NCBI GenBank assembly: GCA_039922495.1
Contig: JBDTEO010000017.1
Span: 84,430 to 148,429, forward strand
Direction of reading: 5' to 3'
Source of the DNA: Candidatus Dormibacter sp.
Lineage (GTDB): Bacteria > Chloroflexota > Dormibacteria > CF-121
DNA: 64,000 nt
A program made the translations under genes and the position numbers. Within the stretch, counting starts at the first letter, position 1, and each line of letters begins with the position of its first letter. Shown piece by piece: positions 5,893 through 58,709 of the stretch. Under the pieces are notes generated by a model. It ran no database searches, was not told the origin of the DNA, and was given only the letters and a program-made list of their open reading frames with translations.

Positions 5893-7215
5893 GTGGAGAT
5901 GACGGACCCGATCCAGCCGAACCTCCTGCGCGACGACTTTCCCTACACGCGGATTCCCCCGATCCGGCTGGAGGCGACTGGTGTGCCACTGGCGACGCCC
6001 GCCGACCTCTTCATCACCGATACGACGTTCCGCGACGGACAGCAGGCGCGGGCTCCCTACACGCCCGAGCAGATCGTGCATCTCTACGACCTGCTGGGGG
6101 CGATGGGCGGCCGCGTGGTTCGGCAGGCGGAGTTCTTCGCCTACACGCAAACCGATCGGGAGGCGATCGCCGCCTGCCAGCAGCGACCCGGCCCGGAGGT
6201 CACCACCTGGATGCGAGCCGCGCCGGACGACCTGCGCCAGGTCCGCGCCACCGGCGTCAAGGAGTCGGGCATCCTGCTCTCGGCCTCGGATTACCACATC
6301 TATCTCAAGATGAAGCGCACGCGCCGGCAGGCGGCGGAGGAGTATATCGCCGTCGTGCGCGCGGTCATCGAGGCCGGGATCCGTCCCCGCTGCCATCTCG
6401 AAGATCTGACCCGCGCCGATCTCGACGGGTTCGTCGCGCCCCTGGTCGACGCTCTGCAAGAACTTGGGCGGGAGGCAAACGTGCCCGTGAAATTCCGCCT
6501 CTGCGACACGATGGGCTTTGGCCTGCCGTGGCCCGAGGCGTCGCTGCCGCGCGGCGTGCCCCGACTGGTCCAGTTTTTCACCCGGACACTCAACGTCCCA
6601 TCCGAGCGGCTGGAATGGCATGGGCATAACGATTTCCACCGCGGCGAGGTCAACACCGTCGCCGCCTGGCTCTATGGCTGTTCCGCGGCCAACGGCTCAC
6701 TGTTCGGCTTTGGCGAGCGAACCGGGAACCCACCGCTGGAGGCGCTGCTGATCGACTACATCGGCCTCAAGGGGGACGAGGAGGGTATCGACACCACGGC
6801 GATCACGCGCGCCGCGGCCTATTTCCGCGATCAACTCGGTACGCCGCTGCCGGCCAACTATCCCTTTGCCGGGGCCGGCTTCAACGTCACCAGCGCCGGC
6901 ATCCACGCCGATGGCCTGATGAAGAATGAGGAGATCTACAACATCTTCGACACCGGACGCATCCTCGATCGCCCCCTCGGGATCACGGTCAACGATCGGT
7001 CTGGGTTGGCCGGCGTTGCCTACTGGGTCAACACGACCTTTGGGTTGCGTGAGAAGGACCAGATTCGAAAAGACGACCCGCGGACCATCGCCGTCCACGC
7101 CGAGGTCGAACGACAGTATGCGAGCGGGCGGACGACCGGATTTTCTCCGGACGAGATGCAAGCCCTCGCCCGGTTGCATTTCGGCAACGCCCTGGCAACG
7201 ACCGCGCGAAGCTAA
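5893..7215 (+). CDS. 2-isopropylmalate/(R)-citramalate/homocitrate synthase family enzyme (HMGL-like TIM barrel, short form)
   Basis: TTFRDGQQA substrate motif, HGHNDFHRGE ... GERTGN metal/catalytic motifs, LeuA-like PANYPFAGAGFNVTSAGIH subdomain II. Confidence 0.75.
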   Translation: MEMTDPIQPNLLRDDFPYTRIPPIRLEATGVPLATPADLFITDTTFRDGQQARAPYTPEQIVHLYDLLGAMGGRVVRQAEFFAYTQTDREAIAACQQRPGPEVTTWMRAAPDDLRQVRATGVKESGILLSASDYHIYLKMKRTRRQAAEEYIAVVRAVIEAGIRPRCHLEDLTRADLDGFVAPLVDALQELGREANVPVKFRLCDTMGFGLPWPEASLPRGVPRLVQFFTRTLNVPSERLEWHGHNDFHRGEVNTVAAWLYGCSAANGSLFGFGERTGNPPLEALLIDYIGLKGDEEGIDTTAITRAAAYFRDQLGTPLPANYPFAGAGFNVTSAGIHADGLMKNEEIYNIFDTGRILDRPLGITVNDRSGLAGVAYWVNTTFGLREKDQIRKDDPRTIAVHAEVERQYASGRTTGFSPDEMQALARLHFGNALATTARS

Positions 7216-33040: not shown

Positions 33041-34072
33041 CTACATATGCTCGCCGAGCTTGCTCCCGATGCCGACCTCGTCGAGAGGCCCGTAGTTATT
33101 CGTCACGTCGCTCGCGTTGATCACCTTGGGGCCGCGCCATCTCTGGACGCGGCCGCCCATCTTCAAGACCCAAACCTCAAGTTTGCCCTCGGGTAGAACC
33201 TGGCCCACCCGCGCGAACGATCGCCCGCGGTCCTTCAACCGGATCACGTCCTTGATCGCGAAACGCTCCGGGGGTCGCGCGCCGACGGCGCCGTTGGATT
33301 CCGCCGTCCCGTCAAGGCCGCCCCGGCCGTCGCCCTTTGGGCGCACCTTGCGCATCAGCCGGGCGACGGGATCGTACACATCCGTGGCCATGCGTTCCTT
33401 CAGCGGGATGATGGCGTTGTCGGTGATCTTAATGTGTTCCGGACAGACTTCCTGGCAGCACTTGGTAATGTTGCACATCCCGACGCCGGCCTTTCCATGG
33501 AGGAGACCTGTGCGTCGCAGCGTATCGAGTGGATGCATCTCGAGGCCGGCGATCCGAACCATATAGCGGGGGCCGTAGTAGGCGGACTTGTCGTCGTGGT
33601 TGCGCAGTACGTGGCAGACGTCCTGGCAAAGAAAGCACTCGATGCACCTGCGGTACTCGTAAACCCGCTCAGTGTCCTGCGGCAGCATCTTGTACGGCAC
33701 CGGCTCGTTGGCCGGCGGCGTGAACGGGGGAATCTCCTGGTTGACCTTGTAGTTCCACGACACGTCCGTGACCAGGTCCTTGATCAATGGGAACGTCCGC
33801 ATCGGGGCGACGTGAATATCCCCTTCCGGGAACTCGTCGACGCGCGTCTTGCACATCAGGCGCGGCCGGCCATTGATTTCGGCGCTGCAGGAGCCGCATT
33901 TGGCGGCTTTGCAATTCCAGCGGCAGGCGAGGTCGTTGGCCAGGTTGGCCTGCACGTAGTGAATGGCGTCGAGGACAACCATGCCTTCCAGCGCCGGGAC
34001 CTCAAAGCGCTCCTCCCGGCCGCCCGTTTCGTCTCCGCGAAAGACCTGGAGAACGATCGACGCTTGCTTCAC
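33041..34072 (-). CDS. sdhB: succinate dehydrogenase/fumarate reductase iron-sulfur subunit with a C-terminal extension of about 95 aa
   Basis: 2Fe-2S CRWNCKAAKCGSCS, 4Fe-4S CIECFLCQDVC and 3Fe-4S CNITKCCQEVCP motifs; 343 aa against a typical 250. Confidence 0.85.
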   Translation of the reverse strand: MKQASIVLQVFRGDETGGREERFEVPALEGMVVLDAIHYVQANLANDLACRWNCKAAKCGSCSAEINGRPRLMCKTRVDEFPEGDIHVAPMRTFPLIKDLVTDVSWNYKVNQEIPPFTPPANEPVPYKMLPQDTERVYEYRRCIECFLCQDVCHVLRNHDDKSAYYGPRYMVRIAGLEMHPLDTLRRTGLLHGKAGVGMCNITKCCQEVCPEHIKITDNAIIPLKERMATDVYDPVARLMRKVRPKGDGRGGLDGTAESNGAVGARPPERFAIKDVIRLKDRGRSFARVGQVLPEGKLEVWVLKMGGRVQRWRGPKVINASDVTNNYGPLDEVGIGSKLGEHM

Positions 34073-35802
34073 GCGGGGACGCCCTGGGCCGCCTTCTCCT
34101 CGAACAGGCGGGCGAGTTCGGGCGGCATCTCGGGCACCGGCTTTCGTTTCAGCTTCATCGTTCCGTGGTCGTCATACGCGATCAGGTTGATCCGCCCGAA
34201 TGCGGGGTCCTTCTCGAGGTGGTCGAGGCGCCAGTGGGCTCCTCGGCTTTCGTTCCGTTCCAGCGCGGCCCGGACAATCGCCTCGGCGATGGTCAGCATG
34301 AAGCGCAGGTCCCGCGCGGTGTGCCAGCCAGGGTTGTAGCGGCGCGATCCCGGCGCATGAATCCCGGCCGTCCGCGCCTGCAGCTCGAGAACCTTGTTGA
34401 GACAGGTCCGCAGCCCCTCTTCCGTTCTGGCCAGGCCGGCGCCGTCCTGCATCGCCTGTTGCAATTCCTGCTGGAGGTGGTAGACGTTTTCTTTGCCGGC
34501 CGCTTGCAGGGGCCGCAGCAGAAGGTCCTGCTCAGCCGCCACCTGCCGATCATCGATGCTGCCGGGCGCAACGTCGCGCTGGTACGCGGCGGCCCCCGCG
34601 CCGGCTCGCCGGCCGAACACGAGCAGATCTGACAGGGAATTCCCCCCGAGCCGATTCGATCCGTGCAAACCGGCCGCTGCCTCGCCGGCCGCATAAAGGC
34701 CGGGCAGCGTCGTCGCCCCGGTTTCCGCGTCGACCCAGAGCCCGCCCATCGCATAGTGGATGGTCGGGGCCACCTCCATCGGTTGCTTGGTGATGTCGAC
34801 GTCGGCCAGTCGCAGGAACTGCTCGTACATCGACGGCAGTTTCTTTTTGATTTGCTCGGCACCCAGGTGCCGCACATCGAGGTTGGCGCCGCCATGCTCG
34901 GTTCCGCGTCCAGCCTGGACTTCTTTGTAAATCGATCTCGCGACGATATCGCGCGACGAGAGCTCTTTTTTCTTGGGGTCGTACTCGAGCATGAAGCGCT
35001 TGCCGTCCTTGTTGGTGAGGTACCCGCCCTCGCCGCGAACGGCCTCGGTAACCAGGATGCCCTTGACGCCGGGCGGCCAGACCATGCCGGTCGGATGGAA
35101 CTGGACCATCTCGGGATCGAGGACGTCAGCGCCGGCTTCGTAGCCCATGCCGACGCCATCGCCCGTTCCTTCCCACGAGTTCGATGTCACTTTGAAGAGG
35201 CGTCCCCAGCCACCGGTGGCGAGGATCACGGCTTTAGTCTTGAAGGCGAGGAAGCGCCCATCGACCCGGTTGTAGCCAAAGGCGCCCGTGACGCGGTTGC
35301 CATCCTTGAGGAGCCTGGTGAGCGTCCATTCCATGTGGACCTCGATGCCGAGGGCCACCACGCGATCCTGCAGCGTGCGGATGATCTCGAGGCCCGTTCG
35401 ATCGCCGACGTGGCAGAGGCGCCGGTACGTGTGGGCGCCGAAGGCCCGCTGGAGAATGCGGCCATCCGGCGTGCGATCGAAGATGGCCCCCCAGGTCTCG
35501 AGCTCGTAGACCCGGTCTGGAGATTCCTTGGCATGGATCTCCGCCATGCGCCAGTTGTTGATCATCTGGCCGCCCCGCATCGTGTCCTGGAAATGCACCT
35601 GCCACCTGTCGGCGGGGTCGACATTGCCGAGGGCAGCCGCGACACCACCTTCGGCCATGACGGTATGGGCTTTGCCGAGCAGCGACTTGCACACGATCGT
35701 GACGCGCGCGCCCGAGGCAGCCGCCTCGATCGCCGCCCGCATGCCTGCGCCGCCGGCCCCGATGACCAGGACGTCTGTCGTCAGCGTCTCAAAGGCTTCC
35801 AT
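34069..35802 (-). CDS. sdhA: succinate dehydrogenase/fumarate reductase flavoprotein subunit
   Basis: FAD-binding VLVIGAGGAGMRAAIEAA, histidine ligand region, HPTG and HGANRLGGNSLSDLLVFG blocks. Confidence 0.9.
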   Translation of the reverse strand: MEAFETLTTDVLVIGAGGAGMRAAIEAAASGARVTIVCKSLLGKAHTVMAEGGVAAALGNVDPADRWQVHFQDTMRGGQMINNWRMAEIHAKESPDRVYELETWGAIFDRTPDGRILQRAFGAHTYRRLCHVGDRTGLEIIRTLQDRVVALGIEVHMEWTLTRLLKDGNRVTGAFGYNRVDGRFLAFKTKAVILATGGWGRLFKVTSNSWEGTGDGVGMGYEAGADVLDPEMVQFHPTGMVWPPGVKGILVTEAVRGEGGYLTNKDGKRFMLEYDPKKKELSSRDIVARSIYKEVQAGRGTEHGGANLDVRHLGAEQIKKKLPSMYEQFLRLADVDITKQPMEVAPTIHYAMGGLWVDAETGATTLPGLYAAGEAAAGLHGSNRLGGNSLSDLLVFGRRAGAGAAAYQRDVAPGSIDDRQVAAEQDLLLRPLQAAGKENVYHLQQELQQAMQDGAGLARTEEGLRTCLNKVLELQARTAGIHAPGSRRYNPGWHTARDLRFMLTIAEAIVRAALERNESRGAHWRLDHLEKDPAFGRINLIAYDDHGTMKLKRKPVPEMPPELARLFEEKAAQGVPA

Positions 35803-50132: not shown

Positions 50133-51206
50133 ATGCCGCTGCGGATCGCCGTCGTCCCGGGTGATGGCATTGGGCCCGAGGTCATCGAGCCGGGCGTTCG
50201 CGTTCTCCAGGCGGCCACGTCAGGCCAATCGACGTCGTTGCAATTTACGTTCTATGACATCGGAGCCGACCGATATCTTCGGACCGGCGAGATCCTGCCG
50301 GAGAGCGTGTTCACTGAGCTGGCAGCGGCGGATGCGATCTACCTCGGCGCCATCGGCGACCCTCGGGTCAAGAATCCGCAGTACGCGGCCGGCATTTTGT
50401 TACGTCTGCGATTTGAGCTCGACCTCTGGGCCAACCTGCGTCCCTCAACGCTGCTTGCCCCGGCGCTGACACCGTTGCGAGACGCCCCGCACATCGATCT
50501 GATCGTGGTGCGCGAAAACACCGAGGGCGCCTACGTCGGCATCGGTGGACAGTTCAAGCGCGGGACGATGGAGGAGGTCGCGATCCAGGAAGACATCAAC
50601 ACACGAATCGGGGTCGAGCGGGTGCTGCGCTTCGCGTTTGCCCTGGCGCATGAACGCCGGGCGGCAGGGCACTCGGGACGACTCACGATGGTCGACAAGA
50701 GCAATGCGATGTATCACGCCCATGACCTCTGGCAGCGAGTCTTCGCGCTCGAGCGTGAGCGCGCACCCGACATCGAGGCGCAGCACCTCTACGTCGACGT
50801 CGCGGCGATGCAGCTGGTCCGGCGACCGGCCGACTTTGATGTCCTCGTAACGTCCAACATGTTTGGCGACATCCTCAGCGATCTGGCATCGGAGCTTGTC
50901 GGCGGCCTCGGCCAGGCGCCCTCGGCGAACATCAACCCCGACACGCGCCGCGGGCTCTTCGAGCCGGTGCACGGATCCGCTCCGAAGCATGCAGGGAAAG
51001 GCACCGCCAACCCGGTCGGGGCGATTCTCTCGGGCGCCATGATGCTGCGTCACCTTGGGGCAACCGAGAGCGCCGACCGGATCGAGCGCGCCGTCGCGGC
51101 GGCCGTGCGCGAGGGAGCGGCGACGAAGGATCTTGGCGGCTCGCTGACGACGCAGGCTGCGGCTGAGGCCATCCTCGACAGGCTCGAGCCATTGCGCTCC
51201 GGGTGA
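50133..51206 (+). CDS. isocitrate/isopropylmalate dehydrogenase family protein (3-isopropylmalate, homoisocitrate or tartrate dehydrogenase-like)
   Basis: RIAVVPGDGIGPEV N-terminus and NMFGDILSD signature. Confidence 0.8.
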   Translation: MPLRIAVVPGDGIGPEVIEPGVRVLQAATSGQSTSLQFTFYDIGADRYLRTGEILPESVFTELAAADAIYLGAIGDPRVKNPQYAAGILLRLRFELDLWANLRPSTLLAPALTPLRDAPHIDLIVVRENTEGAYVGIGGQFKRGTMEEVAIQEDINTRIGVERVLRFAFALAHERRAAGHSGRLTMVDKSNAMYHAHDLWQRVFALERERAPDIEAQHLYVDVAAMQLVRRPADFDVLVTSNMFGDILSDLASELVGGLGQAPSANINPDTRRGLFEPVHGSAPKHAGKGTANPVGAILSGAMMLRHLGATESADRIERAVAAAVREGAATKDLGGSLTTQAAAEAILDRLEPLRSG

Positions 51207-51255: not shown

Positions 51256-53271
51256 GTGAAGCCGAACGCTCCGCCCTCACCGCGACCCGCCGCCAAACGC
51301 CCTGGTAGTGCCGGGAGCACCGACCACACGATTCGGGGAAGCGCGCTGATCTTCTGGGATCGGAAGATCCCAGGCAAGAAGCTCGATGCCATCGATACCG
51401 ACCAGATCACGCCGGCCGACGATTGCGTGTCGGAGAGCCTGGACCGGCTCGACGAGCGGTGGAAGGCCGGGTCATTTCGGTATCTCATGCCCGACTTCCG
51501 GCAGCGCGTCCATCGGGGTGAGAACTTCGTCATCGCCGGAGAGCGCTTCGGCATCGGCTCATCGCGGGAGATGAGTCCGGCCGGTCTCAAGGCGGTTGCC
51601 GAAGAGGTGGGCTCGGAGCTCGTGATTGTCTGTGGCGATGGAGTGGGGGACATCTTTCGTCGAAACGCCCTCAACCTCGGGCTCACGGTCGTCCAGAGCC
51701 GCGACGCGGTCGAAGACTCGCAGGAAGGCGATCAGTTCTCCCTCGACCTGTCCACTCGGCGGCTGACCAACGAGACACGACACAAGACCTACGAGCCGGT
51801 ACCGCTGACTCCAAAGGAGGAGGACATTCGTCGCTCGGGCGGCATCATCGCGATCGGCCGTCGGGAGTTTAGCGAGTCGGTCGAGCGCAAGCCCGCCGTG
51901 GAGTGGGCCAGCGCGACAACGGCGCGGACGCTGAGTACCTCAGAGCAGATTGTCTGGGCGCACCGGGTCGACAAGGATGCCGAGGTGCGGCCGGGCGCAA
52001 CGCTCCGCGTCTGGTGCGACCTGTTGCCGGCGTCGGACGGGACCGCGCCCTTCTCGATCCACACCTTCAACCAGATCAGCGGTGGGAACACGATCTTTCC
52101 GCGCCAGGCTGCAATCGCGAACGATCACTTCGTCTTCTCCGGCCGCAATGCCGATGACAAGCAGACGTCGATCGGGCGCGACTTCGCCCGGCTGCAGGGG
52201 ATCGGCAAGCCGTACTACGCGACCCCCGGCGATGGCATTTTTCATTTTTATTTTCCCGAGCAGGGCCTGGTCATCCCGGGCGCGTTCATCCCGGGAGCCG
52301 ACTCGCACAGCCGCGCCTACGGCGCCTACGGGGCGATCGGCGTTGGCGTGGGCAGCACGCAGCTCGGGTTCGGCTGGTCGACCGGTTACATCTATTTCAC
52401 GCCGGCCAGACGCCGCCGCGTGGTCTTTACCGGCCGGCTGAGGCCCTGGGTCAGCGGCAAGGACGTGGTCCTGGCCCTGCTGCGACGGTGGGGCAAGGGG
52501 CAAGCACAGGGCATGAGCGTGGAGTTCGTGGACGCCGAGCGGCAGCTGCCAATTCCATACCGGAACACGATCGCCAACATGATGGCGGAGGCCGAGGCCC
52601 AGAACGGCATCTTCGCGTCGGACGAAATTACGCTCGACTGGTACCGGCGTAAAGGCATCACGAACCTGCCCTATCCGACCATCAAGCCTGGAGACGATAT
52701 CGCCTGGGACATCGACGAAACGCTGGATCTTTCTGAACTCGTGCCATACGTGGCCAAGCCGTTCGCACCCGGGAACGCCTTTCCTGCTGACGAGATCGCC
52801 CAGGAAAAGCTGCGCTTCGACAAGGCCTTCATCGGCTCCTGCACCAACGGGGGCTACGACGATCTGCTCGAAGCCGCGCTCGTCCTCCGCGCCGGTCGTG
52901 AAAAGGGTTTCGAAAAGGCGCCGCAGCAGTTCGTCGTCTTTCCTGGTTCGGGCAGCGTCAAACGGGATATCGAAAACCCGGAGCCCCGGCTCGGCGGTGA
53001 ATCGATCGCCGCGACGCTCCGGTCCGCCGGGGCCGAGATCCGCGATTCGTGGTGCGGGCCCTGCTTCGGCCAGGGCCCCGATGCACTGAAGAAGGGCGAG
53101 GTCGCGATCACCTCGTTCAATCGCAACTGGCAGAACCGGATGGGCGTCGGTGGCCTTGGCTACCTCGCGAGCCCGGCGGTCGTCGCCTCATCGGCGCTGC
53201 TGGGCTACATGGCCGGGCCATCGTCCCTCGGGATCGAGTGGGATCCCGAGCGCTTCGACGTCTCTGTCTAG
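51256..53271 (+). CDS. aconitase-family dehydratase with permuted fusion: LeuD-like swivel domain N-terminal, LeuC-like catalytic domains C-terminal
   Basis: N-terminal ENFVIAGERFGIGSSREMSPAGL and DIFRRNALNLGL (LeuD-like); C-terminal PGADSHSRAYGAYGAIGVGVGST and FIGSCTNGG (LeuC Fe-S ligand regions). Confidence 0.75.
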   Translation: MKPNAPPSPRPAAKRPGSAGSTDHTIRGSALIFWDRKIPGKKLDAIDTDQITPADDCVSESLDRLDERWKAGSFRYLMPDFRQRVHRGENFVIAGERFGIGSSREMSPAGLKAVAEEVGSELVIVCGDGVGDIFRRNALNLGLTVVQSRDAVEDSQEGDQFSLDLSTRRLTNETRHKTYEPVPLTPKEEDIRRSGGIIAIGRREFSESVERKPAVEWASATTARTLSTSEQIVWAHRVDKDAEVRPGATLRVWCDLLPASDGTAPFSIHTFNQISGGNTIFPRQAAIANDHFVFSGRNADDKQTSIGRDFARLQGIGKPYYATPGDGIFHFYFPEQGLVIPGAFIPGADSHSRAYGAYGAIGVGVGSTQLGFGWSTGYIYFTPARRRRVVFTGRLRPWVSGKDVVLALLRRWGKGQAQGMSVEFVDAERQLPIPYRNTIANMMAEAEAQNGIFASDEITLDWYRRKGITNLPYPTIKPGDDIAWDIDETLDLSELVPYVAKPFAPGNAFPADEIAQEKLRFDKAFIGSCTNGGYDDLLEAALVLRAGREKGFEKAPQQFVVFPGSGSVKRDIENPEPRLGGESIAATLRSAGAEIRDSWCGPCFGQGPDALKKGEVAITSFNRNWQNRMGVGGLGYLASPAVVASSALLGYMAGPSSLGIEWDPERFDVSV

Positions 53272-53530: not shown

Positions 53531-54772
53531 TCAGGTGAGCGCCCTCGTTGATCGCGTCTTGACAATCGCATGCACCTCCGCCTCATGCAGTAGATGATTG
53601 CCCTGCTTGGCGTGCTCGACAATCGCGCGGACCAGGTCTGGATTGGGCGCGATGCCGCGCTGCTCGAGCCAGTAGATGACGTTCGATTCGCCGCTCATCG
53701 GGCCGATCTCGATCACCTGCTGGCAACCGAACAGGTCCGCCGGGACACCTGAGTAAACCCGGTTGGCGAGCCAGTCGTCACCCTTGCGCATGGCCTTGAT
53801 CACGGCGGCCGCATGGACGCCGGTGGCTGTCCGAAACGCATCGGCACCGAGGACGGGATAGTTCGCCGGGATGGCCATCCCGGTTCCCTCGGCGATGATC
53901 TCACCCATCTCCTTCAGCTTGCTCAGGTCGGTGTCGATCCAACCGAGCAGCCTGAAGTTGACGAGCAGCAGGTCGAGGTGCGTGTTGCCGACGCGCTCGC
54001 CGAGACCAAGGGCGCAGCCATGGATTCGGTCGGCGCCAGCGTTGGCCGCCTCGATGGCGTTGATCAAGCCCAGGCCGCGGTCGCTGTGCCCGTGCCAGTC
54101 CAGGCCTACGTTTGGATTCATCTCATCGAGCATCGTTCGGACGTGTTTGATGATGGCGCGGACGCCGTCAGGCGTGGAGTGGCCGACGGTGTCGCAGACG
54201 GCGACGCGCTGCGCGCCCTCCTCGATGGCCGTACCAAAGAGCCGTTTCAGCGTGTCGGGATGGGCGCGGGTGGTGTCCTCCGTCACGAACATCACCGGCA
54301 ACTGGTGTTCGCGCGCGAACCGGACGGCCTTGCGCGTGTTCTCGACCATCTGGTCGATCGTCCAGCCCTCGGCGTACTGGCGGATGGGGCTCGATCCGAT
54401 GAAGGCCGCGACCTCGATCGGGATTCCGACTCGCTGCGAGATCTCGACGACAGGGCGAATATCCACCTCCAGCGTTCGGGCGGCGCAAAGCGGCTTGATG
54501 CCGAGCCGCTCGTCGCGGATCTCTTCGGCGAGCCGCCCGACGTGCGCGACGGCGCGCGGGCCGGAGCCGGGGAGCCCCAAATCGATGGAGCCGACGCCGA
54601 GCTGGTCGGCGAGATGGAGAAAGCGCAGCTTGACGTCGATCTCCGGGTCGCGGACCGACGGGCCCTGAATGCCGTCGCGCAAGGTCTCGTCGTGGACCGA
54701 TACTCGGTGGGCCGGCGGTGGCGGCGCGTCGACGGTGTTCCAGTCGTAGATCAGGTCGTGCTGCTCAGGCAT
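53531..54772 (-). CDS. 2-isopropylmalate/citramalate/homocitrate synthase family enzyme (short form, no regulatory domain)
   Basis: HDETLRDGIQ, WHGHSDRGLGLINAIEAANAGADRIHGCALGLGERVGN, PANYPVLGADAFRTATGVH; start overlaps the E2 gene end by 8 nt. Confidence 0.75.
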   Translation of the reverse strand: MPEQHDLIYDWNTVDAPPPPAHRVSVHDETLRDGIQGPSVRDPEIDVKLRFLHLADQLGVGSIDLGLPGSGPRAVAHVGRLAEEIRDERLGIKPLCAARTLEVDIRPVVEISQRVGIPIEVAAFIGSSPIRQYAEGWTIDQMVENTRKAVRFAREHQLPVMFVTEDTTRAHPDTLKRLFGTAIEEGAQRVAVCDTVGHSTPDGVRAIIKHVRTMLDEMNPNVGLDWHGHSDRGLGLINAIEAANAGADRIHGCALGLGERVGNTHLDLLLVNFRLLGWIDTDLSKLKEMGEIIAEGTGMAIPANYPVLGADAFRTATGVHAAAVIKAMRKGDDWLANRVYSGVPADLFGCQQVIEIGPMSGESNVIYWLEQRGIAPNPDLVRAIVEHAKQGNHLLHEAEVHAIVKTRSTRALT

Positions 54773-55955
54773 CCGCCCGCTCCAGGCGCTGCACCAGGTC
54801 GGTCAAGAATTCCGTGGCCATCGCGCCGTCGACGATCCGGTGGTCGACGGAGATCGAGATCCATGCCCCGGGGCACGCCACGACCTGCCCATCAACCACC
54901 ATCGGCCGCGGCTTGATGGCGCCGAACCCGACCACGCAACACTCCGGCGGGTTGATGATGGGCGTGCCGGTCTCGATCGGCCCGCTGGCGCCGACGTTGG
55001 TAATCGTGATCGTCCCACCGGTCATCTCCGCCGGCGTCAGCGTCCCGGCCCGAGCCCCTTCGATCAGCCGGCCGCTGTGCTCGGAGATGGCGCGAAGATC
55101 GAGATCGTCGGCGTTCCGGATGACCGGGACCAGCAAACCCTTGTCGGTGTTGACGGCGATCCCGACGTTGACGGCCTCCTTGACGATGATCTCGTCTTTG
55201 GCGTCATCCCACGAGCTATTGAGCATCGGGTATTTGCGGACCGACGCGGCGACGGCGGCAATGAAGTAGGGCAGGGGAGTCATCGAGGCGCCTCCCGCCT
55301 TTGCGGCGGCCCGCTTCTCTCCGAGGGTCGTCGCATCGAAGATGGCGAACTCGGTGAACTGCGGGATGGTCGAGACGGAGCGCACCATCTGCCGCGCGAT
55401 CGCTTTGCGCAGGCCAACGACGCTGACCCGTCGCTCGCCCTCAACCGGCGCGGCGGCTGCCGGCTGCGCGGCGGTGGGGCCGCTGTCGGCGGCGGCCTCG
55501 ACGTCGCCACGCGTGATCCGGCCGCCAGGACCGGTCCCGGTAATCGTCGCGAGATCGACCCCTTTCTCTTTGGCGAGCTGGCGGACGAAAGGCGCCGCCC
55601 GCACGTCTGATGCTGATTCCGGCTGGGGGCTTGGACGTGCACGCCGGCGAACCCCGGTCTCCGGGCCGGCGCCCGGTCCATACCCGACCAGGGTGCTGGG
55701 TGCCGCCTCTTCAACTTCGGAAGCGATCGTGACCAGGGGCGCCCCGACCTCGACCGACTCACCCGGCTTCGCGTGCAGCTTCCGGATCGTCCCACGCCAG
55801 GGCGAAGGGATGACCACGACCGCCTTTGCCGTCTCGACCTCGCAGAGCGGCGCGTTGACGTCAACCTCGGCGCCTTCCTCCACCCGCCAGCTCATCAGCT
55901 GCGCCTCGGTCAGCCCTTCACCGAGGTCGGGAAGGTTGAAGGTCTGGTCAGCCAT
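54765..55955 (-). CDS. 2-oxoacid dehydrogenase E2 component (dihydrolipoamide acyltransferase)
   Basis: Lipoyl domain (LPDLGEGLTEAQLMSWRVEEG ... VETAKA), Ala/Pro linker, catalytic DHRIVDGA; internal ATG at 55955 chosen (upstream ORF extension is junk). Confidence 0.85.
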   Translation of the reverse strand: MADQTFNLPDLGEGLTEAQLMSWRVEEGAEVDVNAPLCEVETAKAVVVIPSPWRGTIRKLHAKPGESVEVGAPLVTIASEVEEAAPSTLVGYGPGAGPETGVRRRARPSPQPESASDVRAAPFVRQLAKEKGVDLATITGTGPGGRITRGDVEAAADSGPTAAQPAAAAPVEGERRVSVVGLRKAIARQMVRSVSTIPQFTEFAIFDATTLGEKRAAAKAGGASMTPLPYFIAAVAASVRKYPMLNSSWDDAKDEIIVKEAVNVGIAVNTDKGLLVPVIRNADDLDLRAISEHSGRLIEGARAGTLTPAEMTGGTITITNVGASGPIETGTPIINPPECCVVGFGAIKPRPMVVDGQVVACPGAWISISVDHRIVDGAMATEFLTDLVQRLERADA

Positions 55956-56913
55956 AGGCGATGACGGTGTCGATGGCCTCGAGAATCCGGTCGACGTCCG
56001 GCAGATAGAGCTTCTCGAAGCGCGATGGGGGATAGGGCACATTGAGGCCGGCGACCCGCTGGACGGGTGCCTCGAGGAGGTCGAAGGCGTCGTGGCTGAT
56101 GCGGGCCGCAATCTCGGCGCCGAAGCCACAGAAGACCGGCGCCTCGTGGACGATGACGGCGCGATGCGTCTTAGTAACCGAGGTCATCACGGCATCCATG
56201 TCGAGCGGGGAGAGGCTGCGCAGGTCGATGACTTCGACGGAGGTGCCGTCTTCGGCGGCAGCCTTGGCCGCCTGCAGTGCCGTCTGCACCGTCGGCCCGT
56301 AGCCGATCACCGTCACCGCCGTCCCCGCCTGCCGCACACAGGCCTTGCCGATCGGGATGCGGGCGGCCGGGTCGACCTCTGCCTTGAGGTAATAGCGGGC
56401 CTTCGGTTCGAAGAAGACGACCGGATCGTCGTCGGCGATCGCGGCGCGGAGCAGCCCATAGGCATCGCCAGGGGTCGAGGGCGCTACCACCTTGAGGCCG
56501 GCCGTGTGGGCGAAGTACGCCTCGGGGCTCTCGGAGTGATGCTCGACCGCGCCGATGTTGCCACCAAATGGGACTCGGATGGTGATCGGCAGCGAGATGC
56601 CCGAGCGGTTTCGATACTTGGCGACGTGGCTGACGATCTGCTCGAAGGCGGGATAGATGAAGCCATCGAACTGGATCTCCGGAATCGGGCGGAATCCCCG
56701 CAGGGCGAGACCGATGGCGACCCCGATGATGGCCGACTCCGCCAGCGGCGTATCGAAGACGCGCTCCTCGCCGAACTCTTTCTGCAGGCCGTCAGTGATC
56801 CGGAAAACGCCCCCCAGCGCGCCGACGTCCTCGCCAAAAATCAGGGTGTCCGGGTCGGCGCTCAGTGAGTCGCGCAGGGCCTGGTTGAGCGCCTTGGCCA
56901 TGGTGGCTTCCAT
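55948..56913 (-). CDS. 2-oxoacid dehydrogenase E1 beta subunit
   Basis: Transketolase-like beta-subunit blocks (FGEDVGALGGVFRITDGL, FEPKARY). Confidence 0.85.
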   Translation of the reverse strand: MEATMAKALNQALRDSLSADPDTLIFGEDVGALGGVFRITDGLQKEFGEERVFDTPLAESAIIGVAIGLALRGFRPIPEIQFDGFIYPAFEQIVSHVAKYRNRSGISLPITIRVPFGGNIGAVEHHSESPEAYFAHTAGLKVVAPSTPGDAYGLLRAAIADDDPVVFFEPKARYYLKAEVDPAARIPIGKACVRQAGTAVTVIGYGPTVQTALQAAKAAAEDGTSVEVIDLRSLSPLDMDAVMTSVTKTHRAVIVHEAPVFCGFGAEIAARISHDAFDLLEAPVQRVAGLNVPYPPSRFEKLYLPDVDRILEAIDTVIAYG

Positions 56914-57998
56914 CAGGGTTGCTCTAGCGAGGCTTCGAACTCCTCGCGTTCCTTGACGAACGGCTCGGGTGGTGACTGGTAAACGCCGCCGTAGACGGCC
57001 TCGCCGGCTGGAGGCATCGGCGCGTTGAGGAGCTTCTCGCGCATCTCTCTGGCAATACCTTCCGCCTCCTCGATCACGGCCCGATCCGCCGCCTCGTCGA
57101 GCACCCCGGCTGCCGTCAGGGTCGTCTTGAAGCGGGCGATCGGGTCCTTTGCCGACCAGGCGTCGACATCAGCGGCGAGACGGTAGCGTGTCGGGTCGTC
57201 GGAGCTGGTGTGGGCGCCCATGCGGTACGTGACGGCCTCGATCAGATACGGCCCTTCGCCGCTTCGCGCGCGGTCGGCCGCGACCTTGACGGCGCCGTAA
57301 ACCGCGAGGATGTCGTTGCCATCGATCCGGATGCCTGGAAAGCCGTAGCCCGGGGCACGTTCGGCGATCGACCCCGCCGTCTGCTTGTTGAGGGGCACCG
57401 AGATCGCCCAGTAGTTGTTCTGGCAGAGGAAGACCACCGGCGAGCGAAAAACGCCGGCAAAATTCATCGCCTCGTGCCAGTCGCCTTCGGAAGTCGCCCC
57501 ATCGCCGAAGGTCACGAGGACGGCTTCGTCAGTCTTCTTCAGCCGGCAGCCCATGGCAAAGCCGACGGCGTGTGGAATCTGCGTTGCCACGGGAATCGCG
57601 AGCGGGGCAAAGTGATACCGTTGCGGATCCCAGGCGCCGTGGGTCAGGCCTTTGAAGAGGGTGAGCATCGCGGCCGGGTCGACGCCGCGGCACATCGCCA
57701 TGCCGAATTCCCGGTAGCTCGGAAAGATCCAGTCCGTCTCGCGCAGGGCTATCGTCGCGCCGACGTGGACCGCCTCCTGCCCGAGGAATTGGCCCCACAA
57801 GCCGAGCTGCCCCTGGCGCTGCAGGTTCAGGGCCTCCTGGTCGGCTCGACGGATGACGACCATCCATCGATAGAGGTCGCGGAGCGCCTCTGGGTCCAAT
57901 CCCAGGGATTGCCGAGCCTCGTTCGACAGCGTTCCGTCGGGTGCGAACAGGCGACGAACGGGGTCCGCGGCGCGTATCACCTCGACGACGTCTGCCAC
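56913..57998 (-). CDS. 2-oxoacid dehydrogenase E1 alpha subunit (TPP-dependent)
   Basis: FGDGATSEGDWHEAMNFAGVFRSPVVFLCQNNYWAIS TPP motif; GTG start at 57998 chosen because the first 99 codons of the ORF-track ORF are non-homologous read-through. Confidence 0.8.
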   Translation of the reverse strand: MADVVEVIRAADPVRRLFAPDGTLSNEARQSLGLDPEALRDLYRWMVVIRRADQEALNLQRQGQLGLWGQFLGQEAVHVGATIALRETDWIFPSYREFGMAMCRGVDPAAMLTLFKGLTHGAWDPQRYHFAPLAIPVATQIPHAVGFAMGCRLKKTDEAVLVTFGDGATSEGDWHEAMNFAGVFRSPVVFLCQNNYWAISVPLNKQTAGSIAERAPGYGFPGIRIDGNDILAVYGAVKVAADRARSGEGPYLIEAVTYRMGAHTSSDDPTRYRLAADVDAWSAKDPIARFKTTLTAAGVLDEAADRAVIEEAEGIAREMREKLLNAPMPPAGEAVYGGVYQSPPEPFVKEREEFEASLEQP

Positions 57999-58034
57999 CG
58001 GTGACAATCGTATACCCGGGTATCGTAGAGCTAG

Positions 58035-58709
58035 ATGGCAGACGACCCGGTCGCCGCGCTCGCTGAGCTCTATCAGGTCGAGCAGCGCCTGGCGGAAATC
58101 CGTCAGGACACGGCTCGCCTCCACCAAACGCTGGACGGCGATCCGGCGATCGGGGATGGCCGGGCGCGCCTGGTGGTGGCCGAGACGAGGCGAGCGGATC
58201 TCCAGCGGCGGCTTCGCGATGCCGAAGCGCAGGAGCGCACCGAGCGGGCCCGGGCGCGGACGCACGAGCAACAGCTCTACTCCGGAACCATCCACAATCC
58301 GCGCGAGCTCTCGCAGCTGGCCGGTGAACTTGAACAGCTCAAGGGCCGCCTCGCGCTGGAAGAAGTCACCGAGATGGAGCTGTTGGCGGAACTCGACGAG
58401 GCGGACGCCGAACTCCGCGCCGCCACTGACGAAGCCAGGGAGGCGCGGCTGGCCCTACCCGATCTGGAGAATGCCGAGCGACGGGCCCTGGCGGAGATTG
58501 CGGAGCAGCGAGGCCACATTCCGGCCAGCCGGTTACATCTATACGACCGGGTCGAGGCTCATCGGCCGCCACCGCCGATCGTCGAGGTGCGAGGCGGGAC
58601 CTGCACGGGATGCCGGCTGCCGCTCTCCACGAGCCAGGTCCGGGCGCTGCGCATGGCTACGGAGCCGATTACCTGCGAGACCTGCGGGCGGATCCAGCGG
58701 TTGGCATGA
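58035..58709 (+). CDS. C4-type zinc-ribbon domain protein (COG1579-like), coiled-coil
   Basis: Long Arg/Glu/Ala/Leu coiled coil, then CTGCRLPLS ... CETCGRI zinc ribbon; ATGA-coupled to rnhA. Confidence 0.6.
   Translation: MADDPVAALAELYQVEQRLAEIRQDTARLHQTLDGDPAIGDGRARLVVAETRRADLQRRLRDAEAQERTERARARTHEQQLYSGTIHNPRELSQLAGELEQLKGRLALEEVTEMELLAELDEADAELRAATDEAREARLALPDLENAERRALAEIAEQRGHIPASRLHLYDRVEAHRPPPPIVEVRGGTCTGCRLPLSTSQVRALRMATEPITCETCGRIQRLA

What the first reader, a model, noticed from the sequence alone, without database searches (positions are those of the whole stretch)
51256..53271. Single-chain aconitase-family dehydratase with permuted domain order (LeuD-like swivel first, LeuC-like catalytic domains second)
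LeuCD and homoaconitase are normally two polypeptides (large subunit, then small). Fungal fusions run large to small. Here one 671-aa ORF begins with an unmistakable LeuD-like block (ENFVIAGERFGIGSSRE..., DIFRRNALNLGL) and continues into LeuC-like catalytic domains with the Fe-S cysteine regions (GADSHS..., FIGSCTNGG). This swivel-first topology is the AcnB arrangement, but without the AcnB HEAT domain, and it appears in a LeuC/LeuD-like sequence context. It sits right after a LeuB-like dehydrogenase and converges on a LeuA/CimA-like synthase.
Basis: seen in the sequence. Interest (0 to 1): 0.55.

Follow-up and report, generated by a model that had tools for sequence, protein, structure and literature searches.

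The report
Swivel-first fused aconitase-family dehydratase
This is a real, strongly conserved single-chain iron-sulfur dehydratase whose small "swivel" part comes before its catalytic part; it marks an unstudied branch of the isopropylmalate-isomerase group that is common in uncultured soil bacteria, and its substrate is still unknown.

Summary
A LeuD-type swivel domain (about residues 25-205) comes first, then a roughly 25-residue linker, then LeuC/HacA-type catalytic domains (229-655). All aconitase-family catalytic residues checked are present.

It is not an assembly artefact. The same architecture occurs at 71-91% identity in at least 561 species-level genomes, and the best 80 loci are all MAGs from several phyla.

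A confident AlphaFold model (pLDDT 92.7) aligns over the most residues with E. coli AcnB. Domain by domain it is closest to archaeal IPMI/homoaconitase subunits. It is therefore an independent, HEAT-less version of the AcnB domain order.

This order is not unique to the clade. Other small-to-large fusions arose separately, one inside a textbook leuA-fusion-leuB operon.

The window's clade is distinct in three ways: both halves fall below every NCBIfam cutoff, it has its own recognition loop (P-A/S-x-x-C-V/I-S), and it coexists with canonical LeuCD and with AcnA.

Linkage to a short, unusual LeuA-like synthase and a LeuB-like dehydrogenase, plus non-Arg specificity residues, favour a 2-alkylmalate isomerase (isopropylmalate/citramalate class). 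The substrate remains unproven. I rate it a new variant of a known kind, of moderate interest.

The parts
51256..53271 (+). Fused swivel-first aconitase-family protein ('FUS'), 671 aa. It equals NCBI MEO6796574.1 / MEO9007891.1, 'MAG: aconitase family protein [Candidatus Dormibacter sp.]'.
   Evidence: The ORF is listed. Domains are mapped. The true start may lie slightly upstream.
51328..51870 (+). Domain 4 (swivel; LeuD/HacB-like), about residues 25-205.
51412..51438 (+). Substrate-recognition loop, residues 53-61 (PADDCVSES). D56-C57-V58-S59 align with Y-L-V-Y of the M. jannaschii IPMI small subunit and with Y24-L25-R26-T27 of HacB.
   Evidence: The alignments to 3vba and 2pkp are. The C-[VI]-S motif is conserved across the clade, including the 41-46% identical members P0123 and P0127. 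The role of this loop in specificity is stated in PMC7308503, citing Jeyakanthan 2010.
51556..51570 (+). GSSRE substrate-binding and catalytic-serine motif, residues 101-105 (aconitase Ser642/Arg644 equivalents).
   Evidence: The motif is invariant in A1 and in every swivel-bearing row of the A2 alignment. Its role is described in PMC7308503 and PMC8184944.
51871..51939 (+). Inter-domain linker, about residues 206-228, joining the C-terminus of domain 4 to the N-terminus of domain 1. P213 and W217 are conserved.
   Evidence: The alignment is shown. The region is modelled with pLDDT above 90 and is partly helical. Its length is specific to this clade; independent fusions have different linkers.
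51940..53220 (+). Domains 1-3 (LeuC/HacA-like catalytic core), residues 229-655. Includes D290-H291, D349-S350-H351, N622-R623-N624 and R628.
52840..52842 (+). Cys529, the first [4Fe-4S] ligand (aconitase Cys358 equivalent, motif IGSCTNG).
   Evidence: Invariant in A2. Aligned to the HacA large subunit.
53053..53064 (+). Cys600 and Cys603, the second and third cluster ligands (motif CGPCFGQ; aconitase Cys421/Cys424 equivalents).
   Evidence: Invariant in A2. Aligned to 4kp2.
50133..51206 (+). LeuB-like beta-decarboxylating dehydrogenase, 357 aa. It ends 49 bp upstream on the same strand and is probably co-transcribed with the fusion.
   Evidence: Pfam Iso_dh is. NCBIfam NF002898 (3-isopropylmalate dehydrogenase) scores 404 bits against a cutoff of 393. 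The best PDB match is M. tuberculosis LeuB 1w0d at 281 bits. The LeuB-like-then-FUS order is conserved in 16 Dormibacterota-type loci.
53531..54772 (-). 'HMGL1', a short (413 aa) LeuA/HCS-family synthase without a regulatory domain, convergent on the fusion. Its motifs are RDG[IL]Q and V[ML][FY]VTED.
   Evidence: Pfam and NCBIfam results are; all models fall below their cutoffs. Orthologues (51-57% identity) lie upstream of FUS on the same strand, directly adjacent in about half, in roughly 17 Limnocylindria-type loci.
54765..58040 (-). Pyruvate-dehydrogenase-type E1alpha (56913 to about 58040, start uncertain), E1beta (55948-56913) and E2 (54765-55955). The E2 stop overlaps the HMGL1 start by 8 nt, so this is probably one operon with HMGL1.
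   Evidence: ORF coordinates are and gene calls. TIGR03181 PDH E1alpha scores 422 bits against a cutoff of 411. The order is conserved in Dormibacterota loci.

Best explanation
SHOWN. The gene encodes a functional-looking [4Fe-4S] hydro-lyase of the aconitase superfamily, belonging to the archaeal-type IPMI/homoaconitase group. The small (swivel, domain 4) subunit has been fused in front of the large subunit (domains 1-3) through a conserved linker of about 25 residues. This gives a 4-1-2-3 single chain that folds like AcnB without its HEAT-like domain. It arose independently of AcnB. The protein belongs to a tight, slowly evolving clade found in Dormibacterota, Limnocylindria (Chloroflexota), Acidobacteriota, Eisenbacteria, Latescibacteria and others.

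INFERRED. It works like isopropylmalate isomerase. The cluster's free iron binds the hydroxyl and carboxylate of a 2-substituted malate. The GSSRE serine abstracts the proton, giving the cis-unsaturated intermediate, which flips and is rehydrated to the 3-substituted malate. The substituent is probably small or hydrophobic (isopropyl or methyl class, meaning 2-isopropylmalate and/or citramalate), not a carboxyalkyl group.

In this Dormibacter genome it would be the middle step of a 2-oxoacid elongation module:
- PDH supplies acetyl-CoA.
- The short LeuA-like synthase HMGL1 condenses acetyl-CoA with a monocarboxylic 2-oxoacid.
- The fusion isomerises the product.
- The adjacent LeuB-like dehydrogenase oxidatively decarboxylates it.

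Fusing the two subunits fixes their stoichiometry and removes the need for the two to assemble.
For: Architecture and catalytic competence:
- Domain mapping supports the architecture.
- The three Cys ligands, the Asp-His and Asp-Ser-His motifs, NRN...R and GSSRE are invariant across a 42-sequence alignment reaching down to 29% identity.
- The model has pLDDT 92.7 and pTM 0.92.

The fusion is real:
- At least 561 genomes carry it and 80 loci were inspected.
- All 120 listed proteins have the same architecture.

Independent origin:
- In the NJ tree the clade sits on its own long branch, while other small-to-large fusions are scattered among unfused forms.

Fusions of this order probably act as IPMI elsewhere:
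- The Gottesmanbacteria fusion lies in a leuA-fusion-leuB operon beside ilvE, ilvC, ilvN and ilvB.

Pathway linkage:
- LeuB-like followed by FUS occurs in 16 Dormibacterota-type loci, and HMGL1 converges on FUS in 13 of them.
- An HMGL1 orthologue lies upstream of FUS on the same strand, directly adjacent in about half, in roughly 17 Limnocylindria-type loci.
- HMGL1 overlaps the PDH E2 gene.

Specificity:
- The recognition loop has Val58 where HacB has Arg26 and IPMI has Val28.
- HMGL1 has Met/Leu where homocitrate synthases have Arg133 and LeuAs have Glu. This holds in both lineages.
- The LeuB-like protein passes the LeuB equivalog cutoff and is closest to M. tuberculosis LeuB. By my own reading of the alignment against remembered family motifs, it also lacks the IDH Ser-x-Asn and the HICDH Arg.

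Constraint:
- In nine Limnocylindria genomes FUS is as conserved as canonical LeuC (mean 83% against 81%) and tracks the same divergence pattern.
Against: - No IPMI, HACN or aconitase NCBIfam model reaches its cutoff for either half. For example, PRK00402 scores 286 against 385, TIGR02083 scores 250 against 611, and TIGR02087 scores 79 against 109. The independent fusions clear the PRK00402 and LEUD_arch subfamily cutoffs.
- The recognition loop (ADDCVSE) is acidic and carries an invariant Cys. Apart from the Val it is unlike any characterised IPMI loop.
- In Limnocylindria a bona fide LeuC/LeuD pair (TIGR00170 690 against 560; TIGR00171 180 against 116) lies 2-7 kb away. The fusion is therefore not needed for leucine synthesis there.
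- In Acidobacteriota, Eisenbacteria, Latescibacteria and others the gene stands alone with unrelated neighbours.
- The 46%-identical sister P0123 has no synthase or dehydrogenase nearby.
- HMGL1 is itself atypical (RDG[IL]Q instead of RDGEQ), so its substrate is also unknown.
- I could not determine whether the Dormibacter genome has canonical leuCD elsewhere.
- No biochemical data exist.
Confidence: 0.5

Rival explanations
1. The clade acts on a substrate that is not one of the classical four (isopropylmalate/citramalate, homocitrate, citrate, methylcitrate). It would be a new hydro-lyase or dehydratase specificity, possibly forming a previously unrecognised pathway with the unusual RDG[IL]Q synthase, or acting alone in most phyla.
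For: - Both halves score below every curated family cutoff.
- The clade has its own recognition loop, P-[AS]-x-x-C-[VI]-S-E, with an invariant Cys and acidic residues.
- It coexists with canonical LeuCD and with AcnA.
- It is a stand-alone gene in most phyla.
- Its partner synthase is also atypical.
- The superfamily has precedents for unexpected substrates: AcnX acts as a hydroxyproline dehydratase and as a phosphomevalonate dehydratase (PMC8184944).
- Another small-to-large fusion sits next to a PEP-mutase/ICL-family gene, so these fusions are not all IPMIs.
Against: - In the two lineages with conserved synteny, the partners are exactly the LeuA-like and LeuB-like enzymes expected for alkylmalate chemistry.
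- Val at the key specificity position matches IPMI.
- The full aconitase/IPMI catalytic residue set is retained. This argues for the standard 2-hydroxy-dicarboxylate chemistry.
Confidence: 0.28
2. It is a true aconitase (citrate to isocitrate). With PDH, HMGL1 acting as a Re-citrate synthase and the LeuB-like enzyme acting as an isocitrate dehydrogenase, the locus would convert pyruvate to 2-oxoglutarate.
For: - The gene order PDH E1alpha-E1beta-E2-HMGL1, converging on FUS and an Iso_dh-family enzyme, reads naturally as this pathway.
- Re-citrate synthases belong to the HCS/IPMS family and are often mis-annotated as IPMS or HCS, including in Chloroflexota (PMC12016533).
- The PRK07229 'aconitate hydratase' model scores 239 bits on the large domain, similar to the IPMI models.
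Against: - HMGL1 has Met/Leu at the position of the Arg present in both solved homocitrate synthases (Thermus Arg133, which from memory contacts the distal carboxylate of 2-oxoglutarate).
- A second synthase in the window (5893-7215) does have that Arg and is the better candidate for a citrate or homocitrate synthase.
- The FUS loop has Val, not Arg.
- The LeuB-like protein passes the LeuB equivalog cutoff; its best IDH model scores 256 against a cutoff of 510. By my reading it also lacks the IDH Ser-x-Asn motif.
- Related genomes carry an ordinary AcnA (903 aa) a few kb from FUS.
- From the cited paper, Re-citrate synthase is oxygen-sensitive and known from anaerobes.
Confidence: 0.1
3. It is a homoaconitase of an alpha-aminoadipate lysine pathway (homocitrate synthase, homoaconitase, homoisocitrate dehydrogenase).
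For: - The closest solved large subunit is M. jannaschii homoaconitase 4kp2.
- The best PDB hit for HMGL1 is a Sulfolobus homocitrate synthase at 124 bits.
- The hacA_fam model scores 249 bits.
Against: - The loop has Val58 at the position of HacB Arg26, which I recall from Jeyakanthan 2010 as the residue that defines HACN specificity.
- HMGL1 lacks the homocitrate-synthase Arg133 and Ser135.
- hacA_fam scores 249 against a cutoff of 386.
- No lysW/X/Y/Z/J/K-type genes were found among the window genes I annotated.
Confidence: 0.05
4. It is an artefact: a mis-assembly or frameshift that joins separate leuD and leuC genes, or a decaying pseudogene.
For: None was found. The only irregularity is the uncertain start codon.
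Against: - The ORF is uninterrupted.
- The same fusion, with a conserved linker, appears in at least 561 species genomes from many assemblers and projects, including long-read chromosomes (L034, L077).
- Catalytic residues are invariant.
- It is as conserved as LeuC.
- The fold is confident.
Confidence: 0.01

Closest known systems
Archaeal-type isopropylmalate isomerase / homoaconitase (M. jannaschii MJ0499+MJ1277 and MJ1003+MJ1271; P. horikoshii LeuD)
   Same: - The Fe-S ligands, catalytic residues and GSSRE motif are the same.
- The recognition loop occupies the same place, and FUS has the IPMI-type Val at the key position.
   Different: - Those enzymes are two polypeptides, large and small; here the two are one chain with the small part first.
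- Both halves fall below the family cutoffs.
- The loop reads ADDCVSE instead of ARYLVYT or GPYLRTT.
- The motif is GIGSSREM instead of GCGSSRE[HQ].
Aconitase B (E. coli AcnB, 1l5j)
   Same: - It has the same order of the shared domains (4, then 1-2-3) and the same overall spatial arrangement.
   Different: - AcnB has an extra N-terminal HEAT-like domain 5, which FUS lacks.
- Identity is only 18-19%. The AcnB models score 44-72 bits against cutoffs of 782-1287, and only over the C-terminal region.
- FUS is nested among LeuC-like proteins, so the permutation arose independently.
Independent small-to-large fusions of ordinary IPMI/HACN-family enzymes (for example Candidatus Gottesmanbacteria KKS46717.1 = P0272; also P0204, P0207, P0234, P0250)
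   Same: - The gene order within the polypeptide is the same.
- The Gottesmanbacteria example sits in a leuA-fusion-leuB operon, which makes it very likely that this order is compatible with IPMI function.
   Different: - They are 29-36% identical to FUS and scattered in the tree among unfused forms.
- They clear the PRK00402 and LEUD_arch subfamily cutoffs.
- They have shorter, unrelated linkers and different recognition loops.
- They are rare, whereas the FUS clade is large and spans phyla.
Large-to-small fused putative aconitases (NCBIfam PRK07229 / TIGR01342), and fungal homoaconitase (model TIGR00139) and, from memory, fungal Leu1
   Same: They are single-chain members of the same LeuCD-like branch. 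FUS's large domain scores 239 bits on PRK07229.
   Different: The domain order is the opposite (1-2-3-4). The FUS catalytic region aligns to the N-terminal part of those models: profile positions 3-418 of 647, and 51-456 of 709.
[quoted passage not shown]
   Different: It is about 11-13% identical. According to the paper it has a different cluster type and different chemistry. FUS gives no AcnX Pfam or NCBIfam match.

Membership tests
Aconitase superfamily (Fe-S hydro-lyases) | Three Cys ligands for a [4Fe-4S] cluster in domain 3 (aconitase Cys358, Cys421, Cys424) | tested here: met
   C529, C600 and C603 are invariant in the 42-sequence alignment and align to HacA.
Aconitase superfamily (Fe-S hydro-lyases) | A catalytic Ser/Arg motif (GSSRE) in the swivel domain, plus the Asp-His, Asp-Ser-His and Asn-Arg...Arg substrate-binding residues | tested here: met
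   S102-S103-R104-E105, D290-H291, D349-S350-H351, N622-R623-N624 and R628 are conserved.
Aconitase superfamily (Fe-S hydro-lyases) | A four-domain fold (three alpha/beta/alpha domains plus a beta-barrel swivel) enclosing the active site | tested here: met
   [not shown]
Aconitase superfamily (Fe-S hydro-lyases) | Bound Fe-S cluster and hydro-lyase activity | not testable with these tools
   This requires anaerobic purification or reconstitution, followed by spectroscopy and enzyme assays.
Isopropylmalate isomerase (LeuCD, EC 4.2.1.33) | Sequence membership: the equivalog or subfamily models for the large and small subunits reach their curated cutoffs | tested here: not met
   TIGR02083 scores 250 against 611, TIGR00170 scores 148 against 560, PRK00402 scores 286 against 385, TIGR02084 scores 68 against 246, and TIGR02087 scores 79 against 109.
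Isopropylmalate isomerase (LeuCD, EC 4.2.1.33) | A hydrophobic, non-Arg residue at the specificity position of the small-subunit recognition loop | tested here: met
   Val58 aligns with IPMI Val28 and HacB Arg26. V or I is conserved across the clade. The rest of the loop differs from IPMI.
Isopropylmalate isomerase (LeuCD, EC 4.2.1.33) | Genomic association with leuA and leuB, and being the genome's leucine-pathway isomerase | tested here: inconclusive
   The gene is adjacent to LeuB-like and LeuA-like genes in Dormibacterota. However, canonical LeuCD coexists with it in Limnocylindria, and there is no linkage in other phyla.
Isopropylmalate isomerase (LeuCD, EC 4.2.1.33) | Interconversion of 2- and 3-isopropylmalate | not testable with these tools
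   This requires an enzyme assay or complementation.
Homoaconitase (HacAB / LysTU) | Arg (with Thr) in the small-subunit recognition loop, to bind the distal carboxylate | tested here: not met
   The loop has D56-C57-V58-S59 where HacB has Y24-L25-R26-T27.
Homoaconitase (HacAB / LysTU) | A partner homocitrate synthase with the Arg that binds 2-oxoglutarate | tested here: not met
   HMGL1 has Met/Leu and Val where Thermus HCS has Arg133 and Ser135.
Aconitase B | An N-terminal HEAT-like domain 5 preceding the swivel domain | tested here: not met
   Only a disordered 22-residue tail precedes the swivel domain. No Aconitase_B_N or Aconitase_2_N Pfam hit was found.
Aconitase B | The domain order swivel, then domains 1-2-3 | tested here: met
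Aconitase B | Sequence membership (TIGR00117 / NF006690) | tested here: not met
   The scores are 44 and 72 bits against cutoffs of 1287 and 782.
AcnA / mitochondrial aconitase / IRP | The 1-2-3-linker-4 order in a chain of roughly 750-900 aa | tested here: not met
   The order is the opposite, the chain is 671 aa, and AcnA models score 44-66 bits against cutoffs of 686 or more.

The most novel reading that the evidence does not exclude
The FUS clade, together with the RDG[IL]Q short synthase, constitutes a previously unrecognised hydroxy-acid / 2-oxoacid pathway. Its substrate would lie outside the classical set, recognised by the invariant Cys-Val-Ser-Glu loop. The pathway would be a conserved housekeeping function in several major uncultured soil phyla (Dormibacterota, Limnocylindria, Vicinamibacteria, Thermoanaerobaculia, Eisenbacteria, Latescibacteria), running in parallel with ordinary LeuCD and AcnA.
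Probability: 0.25. Interest if true: 0.7.

Novelty: new variant of a known kind. Interest (0 to 1): 0.45.

Why it matters
Reviews of the aconitase superfamily list three domain layouts and a handful of subfamilies. This clade adds a populous, cross-phylum subfamily: an IPMI/HACN-type enzyme in the AcnB-like 4-1-2-3 order without the HEAT domain.

It also shows that the small-first fusion has evolved repeatedly. That makes the superfamily a clean natural example of convergent domain re-ordering around an interface active site.

There are practical consequences:
- Annotation pipelines call these proteins 'aconitase family protein' or 'isopropylmalate dehydratase large subunit'. Pathway reconstructions for Dormibacterota, Limnocylindria and Acidobacteriota MAGs may therefore miscount leucine/isoleucine or TCA steps.
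- If the substrate proves to be citramalate or isopropylmalate, the protein is a compact single-gene isomerase that could be useful for engineering 2-oxoacid elongation.
- If the substrate is something else, it reveals a new conserved reaction in abundant uncultured soil bacteria.

Tried and rejected
Approaches that led nowhere:
- The first AlphaFold run used 15 close homologues and gave pLDDT 63.5. I discarded it. A 42-sequence diverse alignment fixed the problem.
- The homologue search with HMGL1 was saturated by Dormibacterota sequences at 79-92% identity. It gave no information on whether other phyla have the synthase.
- I looked for conserved neighbours in Acidobacteriota, Eisenbacteria, Latescibacteria and others by clustering all flanking ORFs and running Pfam on the immediate neighbours. 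Nothing recurred; the neighbours were VIT1, LMF1, HAD, a sigma factor, M48 and M16 peptidases, ETF-QO and RecQ.
- The context of the 46% sister P0123 was uninformative.
- The promoter and terminator scan of the locus showed nothing above the shuffled background.
- The afdb50 fold library was unavailable.
- Seven literature searches found no description of a small-first IPMI/HACN fusion or of this clade.

Readings I considered and rejected:
- An AcnB relative that has lost its HEAT domain. Sequence affinity is to LeuCD/HacAB.
- The genome's only aconitase. AcnA lies nearby in related genomes.
- The only IPMI. Canonical LeuCD lies nearby in Limnocylindria.
- Homoaconitase. The specificity residues do not fit.
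- An assembly artefact.


Full report
**1. Observation**

The ORF at 51256-53271 (+) is present.

Three sources map the domains:
- Pfam places Aconitase_C at residues 83-144 and Aconitase at 321-650.
- NCBIfam small-subunit models (LeuD/HacB types) align to residues 44-201. Large-subunit models (LeuC/HacA types) align to 229-655.
- PDB sequence searches give the same split. Small subunits 3vba, 1v7l and 2pkp match residues 44-208, and large subunits 4kp2 and 4kp1 match 241-657.

The neighbours are as described:
- An Iso_dh-family gene at 50133-51206 (+) ends 49 bp upstream.
- A 413-aa HMGL-like (LeuA-family) gene at 53531-54772 (-) converges on the ORF.

One detail concerns the start codon. 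Homologues begin with a conserved peptide, and the window encodes that peptide (..ALLNTIQPAR..) in frame upstream of the called GTG, where no canonical start codon exists. The N-terminus is therefore uncertain by about 8-15 residues. Residues 1-22 are predicted to be disordered, so the architecture is unaffected.

**2. The fusion is real and widespread**

- The protein is identical to NCBI MEO6796574.1 / MEO9007891.1, 'MAG: aconitase family protein [Candidatus Dormibacter sp.]'.
- The best 120 database hits are all 594-705 aa, 73-100% identical, and have the same architecture.
- The best 80 loci are 71-91% identical. They come from Dormibacterota, Limnocylindria/Chloroflexota, Acidobacteriota (Vicinamibacteria, Thermoanaerobaculia), Eisenbacteria, Latescibacteria, Krumholzibacteriia and others. 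They include long-read complete chromosomes, and every one is a MAG.
- The linker (about residues 206-228) is conserved, with invariant P213 and W217.

An assembly or frameshift artefact is excluded.

**3. Catalytic competence and fold**

I aligned 42 sequences reaching down to 29% identity: the clade, its divergent members, independent fusions and unfused LeuC-like proteins. The following stay invariant or nearly so:
- the three cluster cysteines C529, C600 and C603;
- D290-H291;
- D349-S350-H351;
- N622-R623-N624 and R628.

The swivel GSSRE motif is invariant in the 15 clade sequences of A1 and in all 23 swivel-bearing rows of A2.

AlphaFold with a shallow alignment failed (pLDDT 63.5). With the diverse alignment it gave pLDDT 92.7 and pTM 0.92.

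| Search | Target | Result |
|---|---|---|
| Foldseek | E. coli AcnB 1l5j | rank 1, TMq 0.75, 748 columns |
| Foldseek | HacA / IPMI large subunits | TMt 0.90 |
| Foldseek | IPMI small subunit | TMt 0.86 |

The 435 residues aligned to mitochondrial aconitase are about the length of the catalytic region. AcnB gives by far the longest alignment, long enough to need both the swivel and the catalytic parts.

The predicted protein therefore has the AcnB domain order and spatial arrangement. It has no HEAT-like domain, and its individual domains are of the IPMI/HACN type.

**4. Evolutionary placement**

- AcnB models score only 44-72 bits against cutoffs of 782-1287, so the protein is not a trimmed AcnB.
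- In the library of representatives clustered at 50% identity, the clade collapses to three groups: one main cluster (P0121) and two divergent full-length members with the same order (P0123 at 46% and P0127 at 43%).
- In a neighbour-joining tree of the large domain, these form one long-branched group apart from all other LeuC-like proteins.
- Other small-to-large fusions (P0204/P0207, P0226, P0234, P0250) are scattered among unfused and large-to-small forms. They clear the PRK00402 and LEUD_arch subfamily cutoffs.

The small-first fusion has therefore arisen several times independently.

The contexts of those independent fusions differ:
- The Candidatus Gottesmanbacteria protein KKS46717.1 lies in a leuA (with regulatory domain)-fusion-leuB operon next to ilvE, ilvC, ilvN and ilvB. 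This order is therefore very likely compatible with ordinary IPMI function.
- P0250 is followed by a PEP-mutase/isocitrate-lyase-family gene.
- P0234 has a tandem paralogue upstream.

The published classification already lists 4-linker-1-2-3 for AcnB and AcnX type I (PMC8184944). I found no paper describing it for an IPMI/HACN-type enzyme, or describing this clade.

**5. What the clade is not**

- *Not the only IPMI.* In Limnocylindria locus L085, a canonical LeuC (TIGR00170, 690 bits against a cutoff of 560) and LeuD (TIGR00171, 180 against 116) lie about 7 kb from the fusion. Ten such loci show canonical leuDC 2-7 kb downstream.
- *Not the only aconitase.* In Acidobacteriota- and Eisenbacteria-type loci, an AcnA-type gene (903 aa in L082) lies a few kb upstream.
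- *Not claimed by any curated family.* Neither half reaches any NCBIfam cutoff.

**6. Functional inference**

*Conserved synteny exists in two lineages only.*
- In 16 Dormibacterota-type loci the order is trpD, LeuB-like, FUS. In 13 of them HMGL1 converges on FUS.
- In the window, the HMGL1 start overlaps the stop of a PDH-type E2 gene by 8 nt. The E2 gene follows E1alpha and E1beta. E1alpha passes TIGR03181 with 422 bits against a cutoff of 411.
- In roughly 17 Limnocylindria-type loci an HMGL1 orthologue (51-57% identity) lies upstream of FUS on the same strand, directly adjacent in about half.
- Elsewhere the gene stands alone.

*Specificity positions.*
- FUS. The small-subunit recognition loop sets substrate preference in IPMI and HACN (PMC7308503, citing Jeyakanthan 2010). 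In FUS it reads 53-PADDCVSES-61. D56-C57-V58-S59 align with HacB Y24-L25-R26-T27 and with IPMI Y26-L27-V28-Y29. The key position is therefore the IPMI-type Val, not the HACN Arg. The C-[VI]-S motif is conserved even in P0123 and P0127.
- HMGL1. It has Met/Leu where the two solved homocitrate synthases (Thermus Arg133 and Sulfolobus) have Arg and the two LeuAs compared have Glu. It has Ile/Leu in place of the Glu of RDGEQ. The His-x-His motif is intact (from memory, these are the metal ligands). All of this holds in both lineages.
- LeuB-like. It passes the LeuB equivalog NF002898 and is closest to M. tuberculosis LeuB. Its segment reads AAGILLR. By my reading against remembered family motifs, it lacks the IDH Ser-x-Asn and the HICDH Arg.

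Together these favour a substrate with a small or hydrophobic substituent, meaning the isopropylmalate/citramalate class. They fit a module of PDH (acetyl-CoA supply), HMGL1 (condensation), FUS (isomerisation) and the LeuB-like enzyme (oxidative decarboxylation).

Because canonical LeuCD coexists in Limnocylindria, a parallel route such as a citramalate-type route to 2-oxobutyrate and isoleucine is as plausible as leucine synthesis. I cannot choose between the two.

The steps from 'aconitase-family hydro-lyase' onward are inference.

**7. Rivals**

- *PDH, Re-citrate synthase, aconitase, IDH.* This reading fits the gene order well, and Re-citrate synthases are HCS/IPMS relatives that are often mis-annotated (PMC12016533). 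The specificity residues argue against it. In addition, a second synthase in the window (5893-7215) carries the Arg and is the better dicarboxylate-synthase candidate.
- *Homoaconitase.* This is disfavoured by the same residues.
- *A novel substrate.* This remains a serious possibility, for four reasons: both halves and the partner synthase are atypical; the loop is acidic with an invariant Cys; the gene is solitary in most phyla; and the superfamily has produced surprises before (AcnX).

**8. Constraint**

In nine Limnocylindria genomes carrying both genes, FUS is on average as conserved as LeuC (83% against 81%). Its swivel half is much more conserved than LeuD (82% against 69%). The same genome pairs are divergent for both genes, which indicates vertical inheritance under housekeeping-level constraint.

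Cross-phylum identity (71-77%) is about the same as the within-class minimum. This is unexplained: it could reflect a strong constraint or old horizontal transfer.

**9. Verdict**

The permuted order itself is a recurrent theme rather than a first. What is new is a large, divergent, uncharacterised IPMI/HACN-type clade that carries this order, with its own recognition loop and an unusual partner synthase. I class it as a new variant of a known kind and rate interest at about 0.45.

Noticed in passing
window:5893-7215 (+): There is a second HMGL-like synthase ('HMGL2', 440 aa, motif DTTFRDGQQA). Its best NCBIfam hit is nifV-type homocitrate synthase at 134 bits, far below the cutoff. Unlike HMGL1, it has an Arg at the position of Thermus HCS Arg133 (IRPRCHLED). 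It is a candidate Re-citrate or homocitrate synthase and is only 27% identical to HMGL1.
   Followed up: partly
window:51208-51255 (+), immediately upstream of the called GTG start: The in-frame translation RIVGIDALLNTIQPAR matches the conserved N-terminal peptide of homologues (for example P0045, MAALLNTVQPARRKPG). This stretch contains no ATG, GTG or TTG. The real start may be a CTG (51229 or 51232) or an ATC codon, or the peptide may be a remnant.
   Followed up: partly
window:45461-47426 (+) and 54765-58040 (-): There are two paralogous PDH-type E1alpha/E1beta pairs within 13 kb (about 39-50% identical to each other). The plus-strand pair has no E2 next to it and scores below the E1alpha equivalog cutoff (284 against 411). 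This arrangement is conserved in Dormibacterota loci.
   Followed up: partly
L087:5988-9785 (contig CAYJGZ010000013.1): Two different small-to-large fused aconitase-family genes (589 and 594 aa) lie in tandem, next to IMPDH and a phosphoribosyltransferase gene. They form a duplicated fused pair of unknown function.
   Followed up: no
L088:8001-10687: A small-to-large fusion (P0250, 604 aa) overlaps the start of a PEP-mutase/isocitrate-lyase-family gene. An isochorismatase and a hydrolase follow. From memory, this is reminiscent of dimethylmalate dehydratase plus lyase in nicotinate fermentation. It may be a fused DmdBA-like catabolic enzyme.
   Followed up: no
FUS clade across loci L002-L085: Cross-phylum identity of the fusion (71-77%) is no lower than the lowest identity within Limnocylindria (74%). 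Over the same comparison, the neighbouring HMGL1 and LeuB-like proteins drop to 51-57% and 43-48%. This is either an identity floor caused by very strong constraint or a sign of inter-phylum transfer.
   Followed up: partly
L085:12390-14435; also window:18344-19918 (+): In L085 a large (681 aa) spermine/spermidine-synthase-domain protein is encoded directly downstream of the fusion. A 729-aa ORF cluster recurs at that position in six other Limnocylindria loci, but I did not annotate it. The window has a 524-aa protein with the same domain about 31 kb away from FUS.
   Followed up: no
window:31714-32928 (-): There is a DUF222 + HNH endonuclease gene. From memory, this type is often multi-copy or mobile in Actinobacteria. 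It lies next to the succinate dehydrogenase/fumarate reductase genes (33041-35802).
   Followed up: no
window:58610-59443 (+): A 277-aa protein gives both RVT_3 (reverse-transcriptase-like) and RNase H hits over the same stretch (residues 37-165). It is conserved downstream of the PDH operon in several Dormibacterota loci.
   Followed up: no
Literature: PMC8184944, Introduction: That paper lists fungal IPMI among the 4-linker-1-2-3 enzymes. The only related evidence here is that FUS's catalytic region aligns to the N-terminal part of the fungal homoaconitase model (profile positions 51-456 of 709). I did not check fungal IPMI itself.
   Followed up: no
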